Shown piece after piece: positions 12,104-40,612 of a DNA stretch of 64,000 nucleotides. The notes beneath the pieces were generated by a model. The model saw only the letters and a program-made list of their open reading frames with translations. It had not been told where the DNA came from and did no database searches. The position numbers and the translations under genes are program-made. Position 1 is the stretch's first letter. Every line of letters begins with the position of its first letter. Source of the stretch: Candidatus Nomurabacteria bacterium (lineage in GTDB: Bacteria > Patescibacteriota > Patescibacteriia > HK-STAS-PATE-3); contig CP060223.1 of the NCBI GenBank assembly GCA_023898465.1, positions 576,001 through 640,000 on the forward strand. Direction: 5' to 3'.

Positions 12104-12119
12104 TTCTGGCTTTTTTCGT

Positions 12120-19280: not shown

Positions 19281-19632
19281 AGCTCACGTATCCTAGCATA
19301 TCCCTATCTCAACAGAAAATAGAAAGGGGCAACTCCTCAGAGTCACCCCATGAATCTCAGCAGCGGCGACCGGATCCGTAATAGGATTCCTTTTCAGCTC
19401 GAGTCGCCTGGCGGCAATGATCGAAGGGGTGCAAACTGCACTCCAACCAGACACCTCAACTGCCAGTGAGTTGCATGGTCCCCTTGCAATCCTTGACCGG
19501 GCACTGATCACCCCTCTTCACTTCATCGAAGTTGGGCTTCCCTGCGTCCTCTTGAACAGCCGCGTTTCCCATGATCCCCTCCTCAGAACGTGAGTATTGA
19601 GAACAAGTGAACAAAAAAACACTAGCACGAGA

Positions 19633-19678
19633 TGAAAAAAAAGAAAAAGCCTCAGTGCAAACGCATGAGGCTTGGTAA
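19633..19678 (-). terminator. Intrinsic terminator (minus strand). Hairpin AGCCTCATGCGTTTGCACTGAGGCT followed by TTTTTCTTTTTTTT.
   Basis: Plus strand shows aaaaaaaagaaaaagcctcagtgcaaacgcatgaggct. Read on the minus strand the U-tract follows the 8-bp stem. Confidence 0.6.
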
Positions 19679-19679
19679 A

Positions 19680-20440
19680 GGTTTGACCCGGGACAGTGCG
19701 CACGCAAACGTGCTGCCAGGGACACCGCCCCGGGTCCGGGCGTGGCTCTCAGCCAAAAAAGGATCGTATACAGATCCTAGCGCGAGCGCTTCGTTAGGTC
19801 AAATAAAGAAAAAGGCCCCGTCACTACTACATTGGATGTGTAGCGTGACGGGGCCTGCGCCGGCGCGTAGGAGCGGCGGCGTGAATCGGCCTATCAGCGA
19901 ACCCGGCGGGCGTTTGCAGCGAGTGCTGTTCCCAATGGGTCGACCGCGGATGGCCGAAGTGTGCGGACCGGAGAGGGCGCGTCCCGGCGACAAAAAGTGT
20001 CGTCGAGGCGAAACCGACTAGCCGGTCGCGATGAATGTAATCAGAGATCAAGCCGTCAAAGGACGGTATGCTTCGTTCGAGCTGATGAGACCCTGCATCA
20101 GTGACAGGTGGTCACAACCGGGTCTTCCGATGAAAAGCTGTGACCATCGACTCCCACTTAGCGTTCACGCCGTTGATGCTGCGCATCATCATTGGTGCGC
20201 CGCTTCATGGGGCGAGTTAGGGCAGGACCGATGGTCCTACCCGCAAAGCTAGGTCGGATGTCCGTGGGTCATTCGTTCCTCCTTCTGCCCCTAACGCGTG
20301 TCAGGGGCGGGGTCCGCGCCGTCCGTCAGGCGCGTCGCCGGCCGTCGAGGGCGATCGTCGCGATGGTCGTCGTCGAATCGTAATAGGCGCTGCGGAGCGA
20401 AGTCGGGGGTCCATGGAGATTCATCTCGGACTCCTTTCGG
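19680..20440. other. GC-rich (about 60-65%) non-coding island with no credible ORF. Candidate structured ncRNA or degraded foreign DNA.
   Basis: Composition contrasts with the 45-48% GC neighbours. All ORFs here are short, overlapping and R/P/A-rich. Minus-strand terminator-like hairpins at 19814-19855 and 19761-19777 and a promoter-like TTGACC-17-TAGGAT (minus) at 19802-19774. Confidence 0.4.
19801..19855 (-). terminator. Intrinsic terminator (minus strand). GGCCCCGTCAC...GTGACGGGGCC followed by TTTTTCTTTATTT.
   Basis: 11-bp perfect stem read directly. The T-tract lies on the minus strand (plus-strand aaataaagaaaaa at 19801-19813). Confidence 0.6.
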
Positions 20441-20638
20441 TTCGCGGTGATATCGTCTGGCGACACCACCATCCACGTACTCTCTCAAACATCTCTGGTT
20501 GTTGAGGTGCAAGTTGGGTCGCTTCTCGCTAACCAACGGGAAGACACTAGCACAGCTCAAGAAATATGTCAACCCCAGGGGCTCAATAAATTTTCTGCAA
20601 ACAAAAATAAAATCAAAAAAGTCCAATAAAAAGCCCTC

Positions 20639-20666
20639 TTGACATTCGGTTTTTCTTCGGTATATC
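20639..20666 (+). promoter_or_regulatory. lexA promoter (TTGACA-16-TATATC) with the 16-mer TTCGGTTTTTCTTCGG occupying the spacer. Candidate LexA operator.
   Basis: cTTGACAtTTCGGTTTTTCTTCGGTATATCatagtcacATG. The identical 16-mer recurs at 21321-21336. Confidence 0.5.
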
Positions 20667-20674
20667 ATAGTCAC

Positions 20675-21301
20675 ATGACCGTTGTACTACCAAAGAAGAA
20701 ACAAGAGCTCCTGAAATACCTTCAGGAATATATTACTGAACATAGCTACGCCCCTACCCTGACCGAGATAGCGAAAAAGTTTGGCGTGTCCTCACTTGCT
20801 ACGATTCACGAGCATCTCGCCTTTTTAGAGGAGAACGGCTTTATCCGTCGTGATAAGCAACAAGCCCGTGGAATTACCCTGCTCAATCCAGAGGATAACG
20901 CTACGCAAAGTGAAAGCGCCTTGAATACAATAGAATTACCAATCGTTGGGGTTATCACCGCAGGTGCACCAATTGAGGCTATTGAGGATCGCGACCGCAC
21001 GCTTTCCGTCCCCCAGGAAATCGCTGGCCGTAAAAACGCCTATGTATTAAAGGTGCGCGGCGATTCTATGATTGAAAGTCTCATTGCTGACGGTGATTTC
21101 GTTGTTGTAGAAAAAACTGAATACGCAAAAGATGGTGACACTGTTGTAGCAATGCTAGAGGACGGCACCGCTACCTTAAAGAAATTCTTTAAGCATAAGA
21201 GCTATATTCGCCTACAACCAGCTAACAAGGCATATGCACCAATTAAAGTACCATCCGTAGTTATTCAAGGACGCGTACTTGGTGTCATGCGCAAAATGTA
21301 A
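20675..21301 (+). CDS. lexA: LexA repressor (S24 peptidase family)
   Basis: N-terminal wHTH (LTEIAKKFGVSSLATIHEHLAFLEENGFI). C-terminal S24 domain with GDSM (Ser nucleophile) and a later Lys. Start moved to the internal Met at 20675 because the promoter lies inside the longer annotated ORF. Confidence 0.85.
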   Translation: MTVVLPKKKQELLKYLQEYITEHSYAPTLTEIAKKFGVSSLATIHEHLAFLEENGFIRRDKQQARGITLLNPEDNATQSESALNTIELPIVGVITAGAPIEAIEDRDRTLSVPQEIAGRKNAYVLKVRGDSMIESLIADGDFVVVEKTEYAKDGDTVVAMLEDGTATLKKFFKHKSYIRLQPANKAYAPIKVPSVVIQGRVLGVMRKM

Positions 21302-21320
21302 TTTTTATTTATCTTTTATC

Positions 21321-21336
21321 TTCGGTTTTTCTTCGG
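21321..21336 (+). promoter_or_regulatory. Second copy of TTCGGTTTTTCTTCGG, 3 nt upstream of the Y-family polymerase start codon
   Basis: tatcTTCGGTTTTTCTTCGGcctATG. Exact 16/16 identity to the lexA promoter element. Confidence 0.45.
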
Positions 21337-21339
21337 CCT

Positions 21340-22527
21340 ATGAAACCCTCCCCTCTTATCAAGCGTTATATCCACGTCCGTTTAAATAGTTTTCTCGCTA
21401 GTATTGTTGAGAGAGAAAACCCCAAACTACAGGGTCGGCCTATTGTAATAAGCGAAATGCATAATAATGAAGAACGCGTGCTGAGTTGTAATATCCCAGC
21501 AAAAAAGCTAGGCATCCAAAAGGGCGATACAATTTTACAGGCAAAGAAGCGCTGTACTTGGGTGGCGGTATTTCCTAGTGACATTGAATTAGCAAAAACC
21601 TATGCGAAAGAGTTTATTGCCCTACTCTGTCGATTTTCCACTAAGGTCTATCCGCATAATCGTTTAGACGAAGCCTACATTGAGCTAGACGTCAGTGGAA
21701 TTGCTGCAAGCTCTCCAGAGGAGTTTGCGGCAACTATCCAGCGAAGCATTAAGGTACAACTTGGTTTAAATGCTAGCATTGGAATTGCACGCACTCGTTC
21801 GGTTGCCTGGAGCGCTGCACTGCATAAGCAGCCCGAAGGGATTACCAGTGTGCCTATTGGTAGTGAGCGCGCTTTTCTTTACCCTCTTCCACTTACTCAG
21901 CTCTACTCGCTGGGACAGCGCTCACGCGAATACCTCCTCTCGCATGGTATTCGGACTATTGGCCAACTAGCTGCTTGCTCCAGTAATTGGTTAGTGGAAC
22001 AGTTTGGCAGTGCAGGATATGAGCTACTTCAGTTAGGTCATGGCCAGGATATAAAAGAAGTGAAAACGCCAACTTTACAGAAGTCTATTTCGCGCTCACT
22101 TCGCTTCGAGGCTCCAACAAGTAATCCTGCATTAATTGAAACTACAGTAGCTCACTTAAGTGAAAAGGCTCTTCGTACGCTCCAAAAGCAGGGTCGACGT
22201 GCTGAGACCGTGGTGCTGCAAGTGACCGACATTTACGGTCGCTCACACCAAAGTCATGCAAAACTTTCTAGCTCACGAAACTCATTCCAAAAAGGACTTT
22301 ACAGTGTTTTTCGTCATCTTACCGCTCAGGTGAGCGCTATTCGTTCTATTGCCGTGCAGCTGCACACGTTGCTAGAAACACCGCAGGAGCAACCAAATCG
22401 TGTATGGCAAAGTCAGCCGGTACAATCAGCTATTTTAGGTCTAGAGTGGAGATCGGGTCAGCGGGCCAGAAAAGCAGCAAGATCAGGCAGCTTGGTGCAG
22501 TTACCACTACTCGGTATGAGCGCTTAG
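21340..22527 (+). CDS. Y-family DNA polymerase homolog (DinB/ImuB-like) lacking the first catalytic Asp motif
   Basis: N-terminus YIHVRLNSFLASIVERENPKLQGRPIVIS aligns to the DinB IHVDMDCFFAAVE...GKPVAV, but DMD is replaced by RLN. The second acidic motif is retained (LDEAYIELD). 395 aa. Confidence 0.65.
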   Translation: MKPSPLIKRYIHVRLNSFLASIVERENPKLQGRPIVISEMHNNEERVLSCNIPAKKLGIQKGDTILQAKKRCTWVAVFPSDIELAKTYAKEFIALLCRFSTKVYPHNRLDEAYIELDVSGIAASSPEEFAATIQRSIKVQLGLNASIGIARTRSVAWSAALHKQPEGITSVPIGSERAFLYPLPLTQLYSLGQRSREYLLSHGIRTIGQLAACSSNWLVEQFGSAGYELLQLGHGQDIKEVKTPTLQKSISRSLRFEAPTSNPALIETTVAHLSEKALRTLQKQGRRAETVVLQVTDIYGRSHQSHAKLSSSRNSFQKGLYSVFRHLTAQVSAIRSIAVQLHTLLETPQEQPNRVWQSQPVQSAILGLEWRSGQRARKAARSGSLVQLPLLGMSA

Positions 22528-22925
22528 CGTTTTTTGGGAAGTATTATGTTTGGCTCCCCACTATAGCGTGGAGTGAGCGCTTGCTTCTTTGCTAAGCGAG
22601 CCAATCCGCTATGCAATGTTTCGGGATCTACACCATCTACGGTAGCGATCGGAATTTTATGCACATAACCTAAAGACAAGGCAACGCTCATACATGCGCG
22701 CATGAGCGAGAAGCGACCAACCCCTTCAGTAACAAAAATTCCTGAGAGTGTTTTTGGTTCTACTTTTGCTTTTTTTAAAAGCGCTTCAACTAACTTTAGT
22801 GCGCTGGCGCTTTTTTCGCGAGACAGCAAGAAAGAATCCTTATAGATAATCTTCTGACCATCGTAAAGACTAGCAATGATATATTCAGACTGACTGCTGT
22901 CGAGTACTAGATACTTTTTCTTCAT
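22524..22925 (-). CDS. tsaB: tRNA threonylcarbamoyladenosine biosynthesis protein TsaB (YeaZ-like, N-terminal domain only)
   Basis: YLVLDSSQSEYIIASLYDGQ...SGIFVTEGVGRFSLMRACMSVALSLGYVHKIPIATV matches the TsaB/Kae1-fold N-terminus (LAIDTS..., GPGSFTGLRIG...). About 134 aa. Confidence 0.6.
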   Translation of the reverse strand: MKKKYLVLDSSQSEYIIASLYDGQKIIYKDSFLLSREKSASALKLVEALLKKAKVEPKTLSGIFVTEGVGRFSLMRACMSVALSLGYVHKIPIATVDGVDPETLHSGLARLAKKQALTPRYSGEPNIILPKKR

Positions 22926-23577
22926 GCGCTTTAACTGCATCATCTTTCTTTATCTCTGTCTTTTGTCGCATCGTTACACCTAAACGATCAATCATAACTA
23001 TGCGTTTATTTTCCAGAATATGGAAAATGAAGCGATCAGTTAAATCATTGCGATACTGAAACTCACGGGCCGAGAAAACAGTATAGCGTAATTGCGAGCT
23101 AACTTCCTTTTGCAATACCCCAAGCAACTTCTTTAACTTTGCTTTATTTATCTTACCTACAAGTAAAACATCTGTGAGCGTATTTGGAATTCCGGTAAAT
23201 ACTCCAGTAAGTACTAATAGTTTAACTGAACCTATCTTACTAATCGCATCCAGGAAGCTTTTTTGCAGAACTACCTGCGACTTAAGGAAGAGAGATTGCA
23301 GCTCACTGTAGAGAACAAAATCGGTGTTCACGCGGTAGTATTTTTTCCTATCTTCCACCTTTGACTCCAGTATATCTAATCGCTCCAAATGCTCTAGCTC
23401 CCGTCTGATTGAGTTCATGTGCTCATCTAAGGTGCGACAAATTTCCCGCACAAAGTACCATTCCTCTGGATGTAGGAAGAAAAGCCGTAGTAGCTTGGCT
23501 CGAGTTCTTGATCCAAATATGTGTTCAAGCATGGTTTTGACTGACTTGTCGGGAATAAGCGTTTTTAGTATAGTCAA
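22885..23577 (-). CDS. Winged-helix (ArsR/MarR-like) transcriptional regulator with C-terminal extension
   Basis: N-terminus LEHIFGSRTRAKLLRLFFLHPEEWYFVREICRTLDEHMNSIRRELEHLERLDIL is a typical wHTH. Confidence 0.5.
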   Translation of the reverse strand: MTILKTLIPDKSVKTMLEHIFGSRTRAKLLRLFFLHPEEWYFVREICRTLDEHMNSIRRELEHLERLDILESKVEDRKKYYRVNTDFVLYSELQSLFLKSQVVLQKSFLDAISKIGSVKLLVLTGVFTGIPNTLTDVLLVGKINKAKLKKLLGVLQKEVSSQLRYTVFSAREFQYRNDLTDRFIFHILENKRIVMIDRLGVTMRQKTEIKKDDAVKAHEEKVSSTRQQSV

Positions 23578-38498: not shown

Positions 38499-39284
38499 TT
38501 ACTTGTCTTCGGGCAGCTCATTTTTCTCGATTTTTTGGAGAATTTTTGCCCAGGGTAATTTTACCAAGGCATAAATCAAAAAAACGAAAAGAAGAAATAA
38601 AAATGCATTCATTATTACGCTGCCAAGGGAAATTTCTGTGCTAAATACCACATCATGAGCAAAAAGACCCAGAATCGCAATGCCTAGTCCTGCAAGAATC
38701 TTGCCAAAAAGCATGGCGGGTATCAGGTGCCAGAGTGGATAACGTATCATACCCAAGGGTAAAGTGAGCATATCATCGGGTAGAGGTAAACTAGCAAAAG
38801 CAACAATCAAGACTTGAGTTACTACAGGGCGACGATGCACAAAGGCTCTAATAGCCTGATAAGAAGCTGGTCTTTTCCTTTTAAATAGACTTGAGCCAGA
38901 CCACCCCACACCATAACTCACTAATTCGCCCAGGGTTGCCCCCAGGCCGGTCAAAATACCTAGCCAAAGTGGATGGAGACCAAAAGCGGCCAGGAAAAAA
39001 ACGACCGCCGCATACGGTAAAGGACTAAAAACAGTAATATTGCCAATTATGGAAACAATGAAGGTGCCGAGATATCCATACCGAATAGCAGCATCTTGCC
39101 AAGCCTCTGACCACTCAGCCACGCTTCTCTGTGTAGCTGGGTGGGTAAGGAAGAAAACGCTCGCCCCAACAATACAAAGAAAGGAAATTAGTAAAAACCA
39201 CTCTTCCGCGCCCCAGTGTTTTTCAAACACGCCGAAGATATAGCGCTGTTGCTTCTCAGGATTTTCCCTTTTTTCCTCGTCCAC
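38499..39284 (-). CDS. DedA/TVP38-family membrane protein
   Basis: Polytopic. VTT-like core (FSPLPYAAVVFFLAAFGLHPLWLGILTGLGATLGELVSYGVG). Confidence 0.5.
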   Translation of the reverse strand: MDEEKRENPEKQQRYIFGVFEKHWGAEEWFLLISFLCIVGASVFFLTHPATQRSVAEWSEAWQDAAIRYGYLGTFIVSIIGNITVFSPLPYAAVVFFLAAFGLHPLWLGILTGLGATLGELVSYGVGWSGSSLFKRKRPASYQAIRAFVHRRPVVTQVLIVAFASLPLPDDMLTLPLGMIRYPLWHLIPAMLFGKILAGLGIAILGLFAHDVVFSTEISLGSVIMNAFLFLLFVFLIYALVKLPWAKILQKIEKNELPEDK

Positions 39285-40560
39285 GCTTTTGTCGATAACT
39301 AATATAATAGCGACGACCGGCTAGGCGGGCTGGTAAATAACTTTGTTTCCCCTCTTCTGCATCATAGTCATGCGAGTATTTGTAATCACGTCCATAACCT
39401 AAATCTTTCATTAGACTGGTTGGCGCATTACGTAAGTGTAAAGGCACGGCCTCGTTCATACTCTCACGCACATCCTTTTGCGCACGTAATAATGCTTGAT
39501 AGGTACTATTATTCTTAGGGGCGAGAGCGAGCGCAATCGCACAATGCGAGAGATTAAGGGCGCATTCTGGCAAGCCAATGCTTTGAACTGCTTGAAAGGC
39601 GGCAATAGCCAGCGGCAACGCATTTGGATCAGCTAATGACACATCCTCGGAAGCAAAAATAACCATACGACGAGCAATGAAAAGTGGGTCCTGGCCGACT
39701 TCCAACATTCGCGCAAGCCAATAGACGGCTCCATCTGGATCAGACCCACGCATCGATTTAATAAAAGCAGAAATAATGTTGTAGTGTTCCTCGCCCTTTT
39801 TATCAAAAAGCAGATGTCGTTTTTGTATAGCACTTTGCACATGCGCTAAGGTGAGATGCCGCACTCCTTTTGCATCAGGCGCCGCAGTTTTGACGGCGAT
39901 CTCTAAGCTATTAAGCAGGGCGCGAGCATCTCCATTAGCTTCTCCGAGGAGGAAATCAACGGCCTTGGGTGCAAGTTTTGCCTTATACTCTCCATACCCT
40001 CGCAACTTATCACTCAGTGCACGTTTCAACAGCTTTGCTAAATCCTCAGGGCTATGTCGCTCTAAAACATATACCTGACATCGAGAAAGAAGCGGGGCAA
40101 TAATTTCGAAAGAGGGATTTTCGGTCGTGGCACCAATTAACACAATTTCACCATTTTCAACATGTGGCAAAAAAGCATCTTGCTGGGCTTTATTCCAGCG
40201 ATGAATTTCATCCACAAAAAGAATAGTCCGACGACCATGAAATCGCCAGTCATCGCCAGCTTGCTGAACCACTTTACGCAAATCAGCAATGCCCGAAGTA
40301 ACGGCAGACATCTGGATAAATTTTGCCTGAGTCTGCTCAGCAATCAATCGAGCGAGCGTGGTTTTACCCGACCCGGGCGGCCCCCAGAGAATCATGGAAT
40401 AGAGCTCGTCGTTCTGAATCGCCTGCCGTAGGGCCGCTTCCTCTCCGGCCACCTGCTCCTGACCTAGGAACTCAGTAAAGCTCTTTGGCCGCATCCTATC
40501 AGCTAAAGGAGCAGTTCGATCTCGCTCAGGTGCGCGTGCATTCGTAAATAAGTCTTCCAT
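39256..40560 (-). CDS. rarA: Replication-associated recombination protein A (AAA+ ATPase RarA/MgsA)
   Basis: [18 protein letters not shown] Walker A. Walker [21 protein letters not shown]. MgsA C-terminal helical domain. Confidence 0.85.
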
Positions 40561-40612
40561 AGTACAACCGAAGAATAGCCAAAAACAGCCTTCCTGGCAA
40601 CGCCTGCCTTAG

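What the first reader, a model, noticed from the sequence alone, without database searches (positions are those of the whole stretch)
20639..21342. Identical 16-mer TTCGGTTTTTCTTCGG in the lexA promoter spacer and abutting the Y-family polymerase start: candidate direct-repeat SOS operator
The exact 16-mer occurs at 20646-20661, filling the spacer between TTGACA and TATATC of the lexA promoter. That is the classic position for autorepression. It recurs at 21321-21336, three nt before the ATG of the downstream DinB/ImuB-like gene. It is a direct repeat (CTTCGG-N5-CTTCGG) rather than a palindrome. Direct-repeat LexA boxes are established in Alphaproteobacteria (GTTC-N7-GTTC). No Cheo-box or E. 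coli-type CTGT-N8-ACAG palindrome is visible at these promoters. If this is the LexA operator it would define an SOS box for this lineage.
Basis: partly seen in the sequence, partly recalled or inferred. Interest (0 to 1): 0.7.

Follow-up and report, generated by a model that had tools for sequence, protein, structure and literature searches.

The report
Direct-repeat LexA (SOS) operator, Patescibacteria type
The repeated 16-base sequence is almost certainly the binding site of the DNA-damage repressor LexA in this tiny uncultured (Patescibacteria) bacterium; it is real and well conserved, but it belongs to a kind of SOS operator that appears to have been described for this group already.

Summary
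TTCGGTTTTTCTTCGG occurs exactly twice in 64 kb. The other (21321-21336) lies 3 nt before the ATG of a Y-family polymerase gene.

The unit is TTCGG-N6-TTCGG, a head-to-tail repeat with an 11-bp period. Among 80 lexA loci from other genomes, 26 carry an exact copy within 200 bp upstream of lexA and 50 carry a weight-matrix match within 1.1 kb. These are mostly Patescibacteria (Kerfeld-, Komeili-, Falkow-, Uhr-, Magasanikbacteria). The site is nearly always flanked by TTGAC and a TATAAT-like hexamer. The three closest relatives keep both boxes.

Exact metagenomic matches in promoter context precede lexA, Y-family polymerase or imuA-imuB operons, recA and rarA. A third, weaker box in the window (40568-40583, minus strand) sits upstream of rarA, where two relatives have good boxes.

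No Cheo-type, E. coli-type or alphaproteobacterial box is present. LexA has an intact cleavage site and catalytic dyad.

Best explanation: a LexA operator. Box 1 gives autorepression by promoter occlusion; box 2 gives extra repression of the polymerase gene.

Sánchez-Osuna et al. 2017 experimentally validated a Parcubacteria LexA and are cited for direct-repeat motifs, so this is probably a new instance of a known motif. I could not read that paper.

The parts
20639..20644 (+). -35 hexamer TTGACA of the lexA promoter
   Evidence: Sequence; promoter scan. TTGAC directly abuts the box in most related lexA promoters.
20645..20660 (+). Box 1: TTCGGTTTTTCTTCGG, the inferred LexA operator that fills the promoter spacer
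   Evidence: Exact match. Weight-matrix score 30.3 bits, the top hit in the window. An orthologous box sits in the same position in L201, L203, L204 and dozens of other lexA loci.
20661..20668 (+). -10 region (TATATC at 20661-20666, or TATCAT at 20663-20668). It lies 6-8 nt before the lexA ATG, so the mRNA is inferred to be leaderless or nearly so
   Evidence: Sequence; promoter scan. The transcription start is inferred, not measured.
20675..21301 (+). lexA (208 aa): winged-helix DNA-binding domain plus S24 autoprotease, with Ala96-Gly97, Ser131 and Lys169
   Evidence: Pfam and NCBIfam TIGR00498 at 180.8 bits against a cutoff of 111. Alignment with E. coli LexA. Closest solved structure is T. 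maritima LexA, 3K2Z. Homologues start at this ATG.
21302..21320 (+). T-rich tract ending in TTATC, between the lexA stop codon and box 2. A similar tract is conserved in relatives. No terminator hairpin is present here
21321..21336 (+). Box 2: TTCGGTTTTTCTTCGG, the inferred second LexA operator, 3 nt upstream of the polymerase ATG
   Evidence: Exact match; weight-matrix score 21.0 bits. Relatives carry a box 2-5 nt before the polymerase ATG in L201, L203, L204, L003 and L004, and further upstream in L001 and L007. L006 also has a box after lexA, but its distance to the polymerase start was not determined.
21340..22527 (+). Y-family DNA polymerase homologue (395 aa; IMS and IMS_C domains) with Arg14 where the first catalytic Asp normally sits
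   Evidence: (below all Pol IV equivalog cutoffs).
40568..40583 (-). Candidate box 3: TTTGGCTATTCTTCGG, a weaker site ending 7 nt upstream of the rarA/mgsA ATG
   Evidence: Weight-matrix score 12.2 bits, which is within the range of shuffled sequence. It is the only other relaxed-pattern hit in the window. It sits at the same offset as exact boxes upstream of rarA in L206 and L210. An exact box also precedes mgsA in L133.
39256..40560 (-). rarA/mgsA (replication-associated recombination protein A), a probable additional regulon member
   Evidence: NCBIfam and Pfam-type hits. A 100% identical protein is named RarA in NCBI.

Best explanation
The 16-mer is the LexA operator (SOS box) of this Patescibacteria genome. 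It is a head-to-tail repeat of TTCGG with an 11-bp period: TTCGG-N6-TTCGG, usually with a T-rich spacer.

What the sequence shows:
- Box 1 occupies the whole spacer between the -35 and -10 hexamers of the lexA promoter.
- Box 2 lies in the 38-nt gap between lexA and the Y-family polymerase gene, 3 nt from its ATG.
- No terminator is detectable in that gap.
- No -10 element that would be compatible with that ATG follows the box.

What is inferred:
- A LexA dimer binds the two half-sites on one face of the helix.
- At box 1 it excludes RNA polymerase, giving classical autorepression.
- At box 2 it gives the polymerase gene a second layer of repression. It does this either as a roadblock to transcripts reading through from the lexA promoter, or by covering the start site of a weak internal promoter (TTTTAT immediately upstream). 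Basal, autoregulated lexA expression would then not drag polymerase expression along with it.
- After DNA damage, RecA-stimulated self-cleavage at Ala96-Gly97 by the Ser131/Lys169 dyad releases both sites.
- A weaker box upstream of rarA probably adds that gene to the regulon.
For: (1) The repressor is present and intact: lexA domains, cleavage site and catalytic dyad.

(2) Position: box 1 sits exactly between TTGACA and the -10.

(3) Conservation:
- Exact TTCGG-N6-TTCGG occurs 30 times in the 200 bp upstream of lexA in 26 of 80 loci (1.9 per kb).
- It occurs 9 times in the remaining 1.12 Mb searched on both strands (0.008 per kb).
- 50 of 80 loci have a weight-matrix hit within 1.1 kb upstream. 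That matrix was trained on these same sites, so the exact-pattern count is the independent figure.
- Several of the few hits elsewhere are box 2 equivalents upstream of the polymerase gene or second boxes within the same promoter region.
- The closest relatives (LexA 72-76% identical) keep both boxes in place although the flanks differ.

(4) Regulon logic:
- Among the 120 metagenome loci returned with an exact TTCGGTTTTTNTTCGG, 19 matches lie in TTG...TA promoter-like context.
- Of these 19, 8 precede lexA, 5 precede Y-family polymerase or imuA-imuB operons and 1 precedes recA.
- Of the other five, 3 have no downstream ORF, one of them at a contig end, and 2 lie in a coding sequence.
- A ninth lexA site, another polymerase site and an mgsA/rarA site lie outside that strict context.

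(5) In the window the relaxed pattern hits only lexA, the polymerase gene and rarA. rarA orthologues in L206 and L210 carry exact boxes at the same offset.

(6) The function is at DNA level. At lexA the box lies upstream of the -10, so it is not transcribed from that promoter.

(7) Boxes within one genome resemble each other more than boxes between genomes: 0.86 against 1.84 mismatches, permutation p<5e-5. This fits one cognate protein reading them.

(8) Literature: direct-repeat LexA motifs are established. A Parcubacteria-group LexA is listed as experimentally validated.
Against: - No binding or expression data exist for this protein and these sites. Assigning the motif to LexA rather than another regulator rests on association.
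- Only 64 kb of a genome of about 1.08 Mb could be scanned, so the distribution of the motif in the rest of the genome is unknown.
- The rarA site scores within the range of shuffled sequence, and four of six rarA orthologues checked lack a box.
- The mechanism at box 2 (roadblock or internal promoter) cannot be decided from sequence. In some relatives (L003, L007) a terminator-like hairpin separates lexA from the polymerase gene. In L001 and L007 box 2 sits in a promoter spacer, so the arrangement is not uniform.
- A LexA dimer on a head-to-tail repeat needs an asymmetric arrangement of its DNA-binding domains. That is accepted for Alphaproteobacteria but was not modelled here.
Confidence: 0.87

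Rival explanations
1. Box 2 is the operator of a separate, weak polymerase-gene promoter. The -10-like TTTTAT/TTATC lies just upstream and the box covers the transcription start. It is not a roadblock inside a lexA-polymerase operon. This is a rival only for the mechanism at box 2.
For: A T(n)AT-C element directly precedes box 2 in all nine loci compared (TTTTATC, TATTATC, TTCAATC, AATTATC...). L003 and L007 have terminator-like hairpins after lexA, so the polymerase gene there must have its own promoter. In L007 and L001 box 2 is followed by TATATA or TAATAT.
Against: In the window there is no -35 element, and the candidate -10 is poor (T rather than A at position 2). The promoter scan finds nothing there and no terminator separates the genes. 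With only 3 nt between box and ATG, no -10 downstream of the box is compatible with the only usable start codon.
Confidence: 0.4
2. The motif is bound by a regulator other than LexA that happens to control lexA and repair genes.
For: No direct binding evidence was obtained here. A small HTH_20 protein is encoded nearby (22885-23577, minus strand).
Against: The motif travels with lexA across many Patescibacteria lineages regardless of neighbouring genes. It marks the classic LexA targets: lexA itself, Y-family polymerase genes, imuA-imuB and recA. Autoregulation from the promoter spacer is the LexA hallmark. A Parcubacteria LexA has been validated experimentally.
Confidence: 0.05
3. It is a promoter-architecture element with no repressor involved, for example a T-tract spacer that shapes the DNA for RNA polymerase.
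For: In most loci the box is fused to TTGAC and a TATAAT-like hexamer, and its T5 tract is conserved.
Against: Box 2 and several other copies lack a -35 or -10 context. Some copies are inverted: L004, L011, L014, and the paired sites in L021, L027, L028, L034 and L079. No other position in the 64-kb window, promoter or not, matches even the relaxed pattern. Spacer sequence is not normally conserved across phylum-level distances.
Confidence: 0.03
4. It is a chance repeat, a local duplication, or an RNA-level element such as a pair of C(UUCG)G tetraloop sequences in the mRNA.
For: A repeated 16-mer somewhere in 64 kb is not improbable in itself. CUUCGG is the tetraloop sequence (own knowledge).
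Against: The identity ends exactly at the half-site edges. The motif is conserved in dozens of genomes whose flanks are unrelated. At lexA the box lies upstream of the -10 and is not transcribed from that promoter. No flanking stems exist to close tetraloops.
Confidence: 0.02

Closest known systems
Patescibacteria LexA regulon and binding motif (Sánchez-Osuna, Barbé & Erill 2017, Environ Microbiol 19:3465, PMID 28618189)
   Same: Same superphylum and same regulator. That study is listed as the source of experimentally validated LexA proteins from a Parcubacteria-group bacterium (KKW01361.1) and a Collierbacteria bacterium. It is cited as one of the cases in which LexA evolved a direct-repeat motif. 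The motif found here is shared by so many Patescibacteria lexA promoters that a comparative study of that group should have recovered it.
   Different: I could not read the paper. Identity of the consensus, the regulon members reported there, and any description of the box inside the operon or of rarA all remain unverified. My recollection that it reports a small regulon centred on translesion synthesis is from memory only.
Alphaproteobacterial (and Acidobacterium) SOS box GTTC-N7-GTTC
   Same: It is a direct repeat with the same 11-bp period and a shared TTC-N8-TTC core. It is a LexA operator overlapping promoters of lexA, recA and error-prone polymerase genes. In many relatives the second half-site reads GTTCGG (G in 26 of 43 sites).
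   Different: The half-site here is TTCGG. GG after TTC is nearly invariant, and the base before TTC is variable in the first half. The window has no GTTC-N7-GTTC at all. The spacer is a conserved T-tract. The taxon is different. Whether the resemblance reflects common descent or convergence was not tested.
Gram-positive Cheo box (CGAAC-N4-GTTCG)
   Same: The half-site GTTCG resembles (G)TTCGG, so the Patescibacteria box looks like two copies of one Cheo half-site in the same orientation. This is my inference; the Cheo consensus GAAC-N4-GTTC is given.
   Different: The Cheo box is palindromic with a different spacing. No such box is present in the window.
Balneolaeota LexA direct-repeat motif TTACACATATTTTWTACATA
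   Same: It is another independently described direct-repeat LexA operator controlling lexA, recA and translesion polymerases.
   Different: The sequence is unrelated and the phylum is different.

Membership tests
LexA operator (SOS box), general | A cognate LexA repressor is encoded in the genome, with a DNA-binding domain, an S24 autoprotease, an Ala-Gly cleavage site and a Ser/Lys dyad | tested here: met
   Pfam LexA_DNA_bind plus Peptidase_S24; TIGR00498 at 180.8 bits against a cutoff of 111; Ala96-Gly97, Ser131 and Lys169 align with E. coli Ala84-Gly85, Ser119 and Lys156.
LexA operator (SOS box), general | The operator overlaps the core promoter of lexA (autoregulation) | tested here: met
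   Box 1 fills the spacer between TTGACA and the -10.
LexA operator (SOS box), general | The same motif lies upstream of other DNA-damage genes in the same genome | tested here: met
   Box 2 lies at the Y-family polymerase gene and a weak box at rarA; there are no other relaxed-pattern hits in 64 kb. Only 6% of the genome could be examined.
LexA operator (SOS box), general | The motif is conserved at orthologous promoters in related genomes | tested here: met
   26 of 80 loci have an exact match and 50 of 80 a weight-matrix match upstream of lexA. Enrichment over the rest of the loci is about 240-fold. Both boxes are kept in L201, L203 and L204.
LexA operator (SOS box), general | Demonstrated LexA binding and damage-inducible expression | not testable with these tools
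   This needs EMSA, footprinting or expression data. The literature lists a Parcubacteria LexA as validated, but its site sequence could not be read.
LexA operator (SOS box), general | Dyad (palindromic) symmetry, typical of most LexA boxes | tested here: not met
   The two half-sites are in the same orientation. This is a known exception class, not a disqualifier.
Patescibacteria LexA motif of Sánchez-Osuna et al. 2017 | Consensus sequence identical to the published motif | not testable with these tools
   The paper is not held. Only indirect statements are available.
Alphaproteobacterial GTTC-N7-GTTC box | Direct repeat with an 11-bp period | tested here: met
   The TTCGG units start 11 bp apart.
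Alphaproteobacterial GTTC-N7-GTTC box | Half-site GTTC | tested here: not met
   The window sites read A/C-TTCGG and C-TTCGG. GTTC-N7-GTTC is absent from the window. The conserved core is TTCGG.
Cheo box / E. coli SOS box | GAAC-N4-GTTC or CTGT-N8-ACAG at the lexA promoter | tested here: not met
   Zero matches in the whole window.

The most novel reading that the evidence does not exclude
In this Kerfeldbacteria-like clade the SOS circuit may have three features that have not been described.

(a) A second LexA box sits inside the lexA-polymerase operon, abutting the start codon. It would work as a transcriptional roadblock that uncouples the polymerase gene from autoregulated lexA expression.

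(b) The controlled Y-family protein has Arg in place of the first catalytic Asp. This change is conserved in the closest relatives. The protein may therefore be an inactive, ImuB-like scaffold rather than a polymerase.

(c) rarA has been recruited to the regulon.

It also remains possible that the TTCGG-N6-TTCGG consensus itself differs from the published Patescibacteria motif.
Probability: 0.2. Interest if true: 0.5.

Novelty: new member of a known kind. Interest (0 to 1): 0.3.

Why it matters
The result shows that a tool-free reading of raw sequence correctly picked out a non-palindromic transcription-factor operator.

For biology, it gives a clean, testable SOS circuit in a roughly 1-Mb genome of an uncultured bacterium: one repressor, two identical operators 676 bp apart, one Y-family polymerase homologue, and probably rarA.

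LexA is the standard example of a regulator whose motif drifts across phyla. A head-to-tail repeat that resembles one Cheo-box half-site used twice, with the same 11-bp period as the alphaproteobacterial box, bears on how a symmetric dimer switches from inverted to direct repeats.

The practical value is modest, because the motif class is very probably already published.

Tried and rejected
- I tried to read Sánchez-Osuna et al. 2017 by PubMed id and by DOI; it is not held. Literature searches for a statement of its consensus found only citing papers without the sequence. The supplement of the NAR 2021 paper gave the validated protein accessions but no sites.
- I looked for the validated protein KKW01361.1 among ten LexA clusters; it was not there.
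- I searched for classical boxes (Cheo, E. coli, alphaproteobacterial); none is present.
- The weight-matrix scan of the window found only the two strong sites plus the weak rarA site. That site is not significant on score alone; it gains support only from orthologous sites.
- Most of the 120 metagenome matches to TTCGGTTTTTNTTCGG lie inside long ORFs of unrelated, often GC-rich contigs. I treated them as chance.
- I considered an RNA-level role (UUCG tetraloops) and rejected it, because box 1 is upstream of the -10 and no flanking stems exist.
- The GC-rich stretch upstream of the lexA promoter was searched against Rfam at a permissive threshold and for tRNA and tmRNA genes, and compared with all fetched loci. 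Nothing was found.
Full report
**Observation.** The 16-mer TTCGGTTTTTCTTCGG occurs exactly twice in the window, at 20645-20660 and 21321-21336, both on the + strand.

- The first copy lies precisely between TTGACA (20639-20644) and a -10 element: TATATC at 20661-20666, or TATCAT at 20663-20668. The promoter scan scores TTGACA-18-TATCAT as 11 of 12.
- The lexA ATG is at 20675, only 6-8 nt after the -10. The lexA mRNA is therefore probably leaderless or nearly so (inference).
- The second copy lies in the 38-nt gap between the lexA stop codon (21299-21301) and the ATG at 21340 of a Y-family polymerase gene, 3 nt from that ATG.
- The identity ends exactly at the outer edges of the two TTCGG units.

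A repeated 16-mer is not in itself improbable in 64 kb. Five families exist; two of the others lie in tRNA genes and the rest were not examined. The structured pattern is rare. TTCGG-N6-TTCGG occurs only at these two places. The relaxed TT[CT]GG-N6-TT[CT]GG occurs three times against 0.46 expected, with a maximum of 2 in 200 shuffles.

**The genes.**

- ORF 20675-21301 is LexA. It matches LexA_DNA_bind and Peptidase_S24, and TIGR00498 at 180.8 bits against a cutoff of 111. Aligned with E. coli LexA it keeps the Ala-Gly cleavage site (Ala96-Gly97), the nucleophile Ser131 and Lys169. The nearest solved structure is Thermotoga maritima LexA.
- ORF 21340-22527 has the IMS and IMS_C domains of Y-family polymerases, but it lies below every Pol IV equivalog cutoff.
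- LexA homologues are labelled Patescibacteria or Candidatus Kerfeldbacteria. The best hits beyond a 99% fragment are 76% and 72-73% identical.
- A protein 100% identical to the window's RarA lies on a 1.08-Mb NCBI contig labelled MAG Candidatus Nomurabacteria. That contig is presumably the source genome.

**Comparative test at lexA.** I fetched 80 lexA loci from species-representative genomes and four closer relatives.

- Exact TTCGG-N6-TTCGG occurs 30 times in the 200 bp upstream of lexA, in 26 loci. It occurs 9 times in the remaining 1.12 Mb searched on both strands. That is 1.9 against 0.008 per kb.
- A weight matrix built from the promoter sites finds a hit within 1.1 kb upstream in 50 of 80 loci. 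That figure is partly circular; the exact-pattern count is not.
- The carriers are Kerfeld-, Komeili-, Falkow-, Uhr- and Magasanikbacteria, other Parcubacteria-group genomes and some Saccharibacteria. Most Planctomycetota, Acidobacteriota and Clostridia loci lack the motif.
- In nearly all carriers the box is flanked by TTGAC on one side and a TATAAT-like hexamer on the other.
- The consensus is TTCGGTTTTTGTTCGG. TTCG is invariant in both halves of the sites selected, and the T-tract is strongly conserved.
- The three closest relatives keep box 1 in the spacer: L201 TTGACA-TTCGGTTTTACTTCGG, L203 TTCGGTTTTCCTTTGG, L204 TTCGGTTTTCCTTCGG. Their surrounding sequence is unrelated.

**Comparative test at the polymerase gene.**

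- L201, L203, L204, L003 and L004 have a box 2-5 nt before the polymerase ATG.
- L001 and L007 have it further upstream, followed by TAATAT or TATATA.
- L006 also carries a box after lexA, but its distance to the polymerase start was not determined.
- In all nine loci the box is preceded by a T-rich tract ending in T(n)ATC.
- L003 and L007 show terminator-like hairpins after lexA. There the polymerase gene must have its own promoter.
- In the window no terminator is detected. A -10 placed after the box would overlap the only usable start codon, because the conserved N-terminal strand IHVRLNSF starts at residue 11.
- Box 2 in the window is therefore either an operator inside the operon acting as a roadblock, or it covers the start site of a weak promoter whose -10 would be TTTTAT just upstream. 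Sequence alone cannot decide this.

**Regulon.** One metagenome scan for TTCGGTTTTTNTTCGG returned 120 loci. Most matches lie inside long ORFs of unrelated contigs and are chance hits.

- Nineteen matches lie in promoter-like context.
- Of these, 8 precede lexA, 5 precede Y-family polymerase or imuA-imuB operons, and 1 precedes recA.
- Of the rest, 3 have no downstream ORF, one of them at a contig end, and 2 lie in a conserved coding sequence.
- A ninth lexA site, another polymerase site and an mgsA/rarA site fall outside my strict context filter.

In the window the third relaxed-pattern hit is TTTGGCTATTCTTCGG at 40568-40583 on the minus strand. It ends 7 nt before the ATG of rarA/mgsA. Its matrix score of 12.2 bits is not significant alone. 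However, rarA orthologues in L206 (TTCGGTTTCTCTTCGG) and L210 (TTCGGAAAATCTTCGG) carry exact boxes at the same offset, while four other orthologues carry none. The TTTGG variant also occurs in accepted boxes of L203 and L006. I take rarA as a probable, weaker regulon member.

**Further points.**

- The function is at DNA level. At lexA the box lies upstream of the -10 and is not transcribed from that promoter. Some copies are inverted (L004, L011, L014), or form inverted pairs about 30 bp apart (L021, L027, L028, L034, L079).
- Boxes within one genome are more alike than boxes from different genomes: 0.86 against 1.84 mismatches over 14 genomes, permutation p<5e-5. The perfect identity of the two window boxes is part of this trend. 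It suggests that each LexA also reads the 'variable' positions. Relatedness among the genomes was not corrected for.
- No Cheo, E. coli or alphaproteobacterial box occurs in the window.

**Mechanism.**

- Shown: an intact LexA gene; a conserved direct repeat in its promoter spacer; a second identical copy at the next gene; and association of the motif with classical SOS genes across genomes.
- Inferred: a LexA dimer binds the two half-sites, which lie 11 bp apart on one helical face. Binding at box 1 occludes RNA polymerase and gives autorepression. Binding at box 2 gives additional repression of the polymerase gene. RecA-stimulated autocleavage derepresses both.

**Comparison with known systems.** Direct-repeat LexA operators are established in Alphaproteobacteria (GTTC-N7-GTTC) and were reported for Balneolaeota. 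The present box shares the 11-bp period and a TTC-N8-TTC core with the alphaproteobacterial one, but its conserved unit is TTCGG. It also looks like two copies of one Cheo-box half-site (GTTCG) in the same orientation (inference).

Most relevant is Sánchez-Osuna, Barbé and Erill 2017, who analysed the Patescibacteria SOS network. A later paper from the same laboratory lists a Parcubacteria-group LexA and a Collierbacteria LexA as experimentally validated there. Another cites the study among cases of LexA evolving direct-repeat recognition. The motif found here is very widespread in Patescibacteria lexA promoters, so it is very probably the one they describe. I could not read the paper to confirm this.

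**Verdict.** It is most likely a new instance of a known motif class rather than a new SOS box. The operator inside the operon that abuts the start codon, the Asp-to-Arg polymerase homologue and the rarA site are the parts most likely to be new.

Noticed in passing
window 21340-22527 (+), residues 12-18: The LexA-controlled Y-family polymerase homologue has Arg14 where the first catalytic Asp sits (HVRLNSF against HVDMDCF in E. coli Pol IV and in solved Pol IV structures), and Asn16 for the second Asp. LDEAY is retained. The closest relatives L201-L204 have H-I-R-L-D-S-F; other Patescibacteria have the canonical H-I-D-M-N/D-S-F. The C-terminus (VQLPLLG) resembles a beta-clamp-binding motif (own knowledge). 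It may be an inactive, ImuB-like protein.
   Followed up: partly
window 19281-20560: A GC-rich (50-72%), ORF-free stretch of about 1.3 kb lies between uvrD and the lexA promoter. Relatives L204 and L205 have only about 160-210 bp there. There is no Rfam hit at E<=1, no tRNA or tmRNA gene, and no similarity to any fetched locus. Folding of 19800-20450 gives z = -4.8 (minus strand) and -5.4 (plus strand). Minus-strand hairpins followed by T-runs lie near 19815-19860 and 19640-19680. It may be a large structured RNA or a remnant of a mobile element.
   Followed up: partly
window 40568-40583 (-) and rarA 39256-40560 (-); L206, L210, L133: rarA/mgsA carries a box at the same offset in the window (weak), L206 and L210 (exact). 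An exact box also precedes an mgsA gene on metagenome contig L133. It is absent in L207, L208, L209 and L211. rarA is not a classical SOS gene in E. coli (own knowledge).
   Followed up: yes
L006, L008-L014, L018-L020, about 10-15 bp upstream of the lexA -35: A perfect DnaA-box-like TTATCCACA(G/A)G sits just upstream of the lexA promoter in many Kerfeld- and Komeilibacteria. It often follows a second, upstream LexA box directly. The window's lexA promoter lacks it; the window has one copy, at 12119.
   Followed up: partly
L009 4635-4943; L011 4640-4948 (similar starts in L008, L010, L012-L015): In one Kerfeldbacteria subgroup the gene right after lexA encodes a protein of only about 102 aa. 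It corresponds to the helix-hairpin-helix thumb of Y-family polymerases (weak IMS_HHH and IMS_HHH_1 hits, below cutoff), with no palm or fingers.
   Followed up: partly
L114, L134 (second site), L149, L177: In other Patescibacteria contigs the box is followed by a conserved ORF of 82-88 aa with unknown function, which in three of the four precedes a Y-family polymerase gene (L149 ends before one could be seen). Only weak DUF6504 and DUF7390 hits were found.
   Followed up: partly
L122, ORF starting 32 nt after the box: A single 525-aa ORF fuses a complete LexA (DNA-binding and S24 domains) to a C-5 cytosine DNA methylase domain (E=1e-92), with an SOS box upstream. It could be a real fusion or an assembly or frameshift artefact.
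   Followed up: partly
L155 and L167 (GC-rich metagenome contigs): Exact TTCGGTTTTTATTCGG in promoter-like context lies upstream of imuA-like (RecA-fold) plus imuB-like gene pairs in GC-rich organisms that do not look like Patescibacteria. L070 (Desulfomonilaceae) has four TTCG units at 11-bp intervals upstream of lexA, and L080 has a one-mismatch match to the box upstream of lexA. The motif type may extend beyond Patescibacteria.
   Followed up: no
L021, L027, L028, L034, L052, L072, L079: Many Parcubacteria-type lexA promoters carry a second box in inverted orientation about 24-53 bp (mostly about 30) downstream of the spacer box.
   Followed up: no
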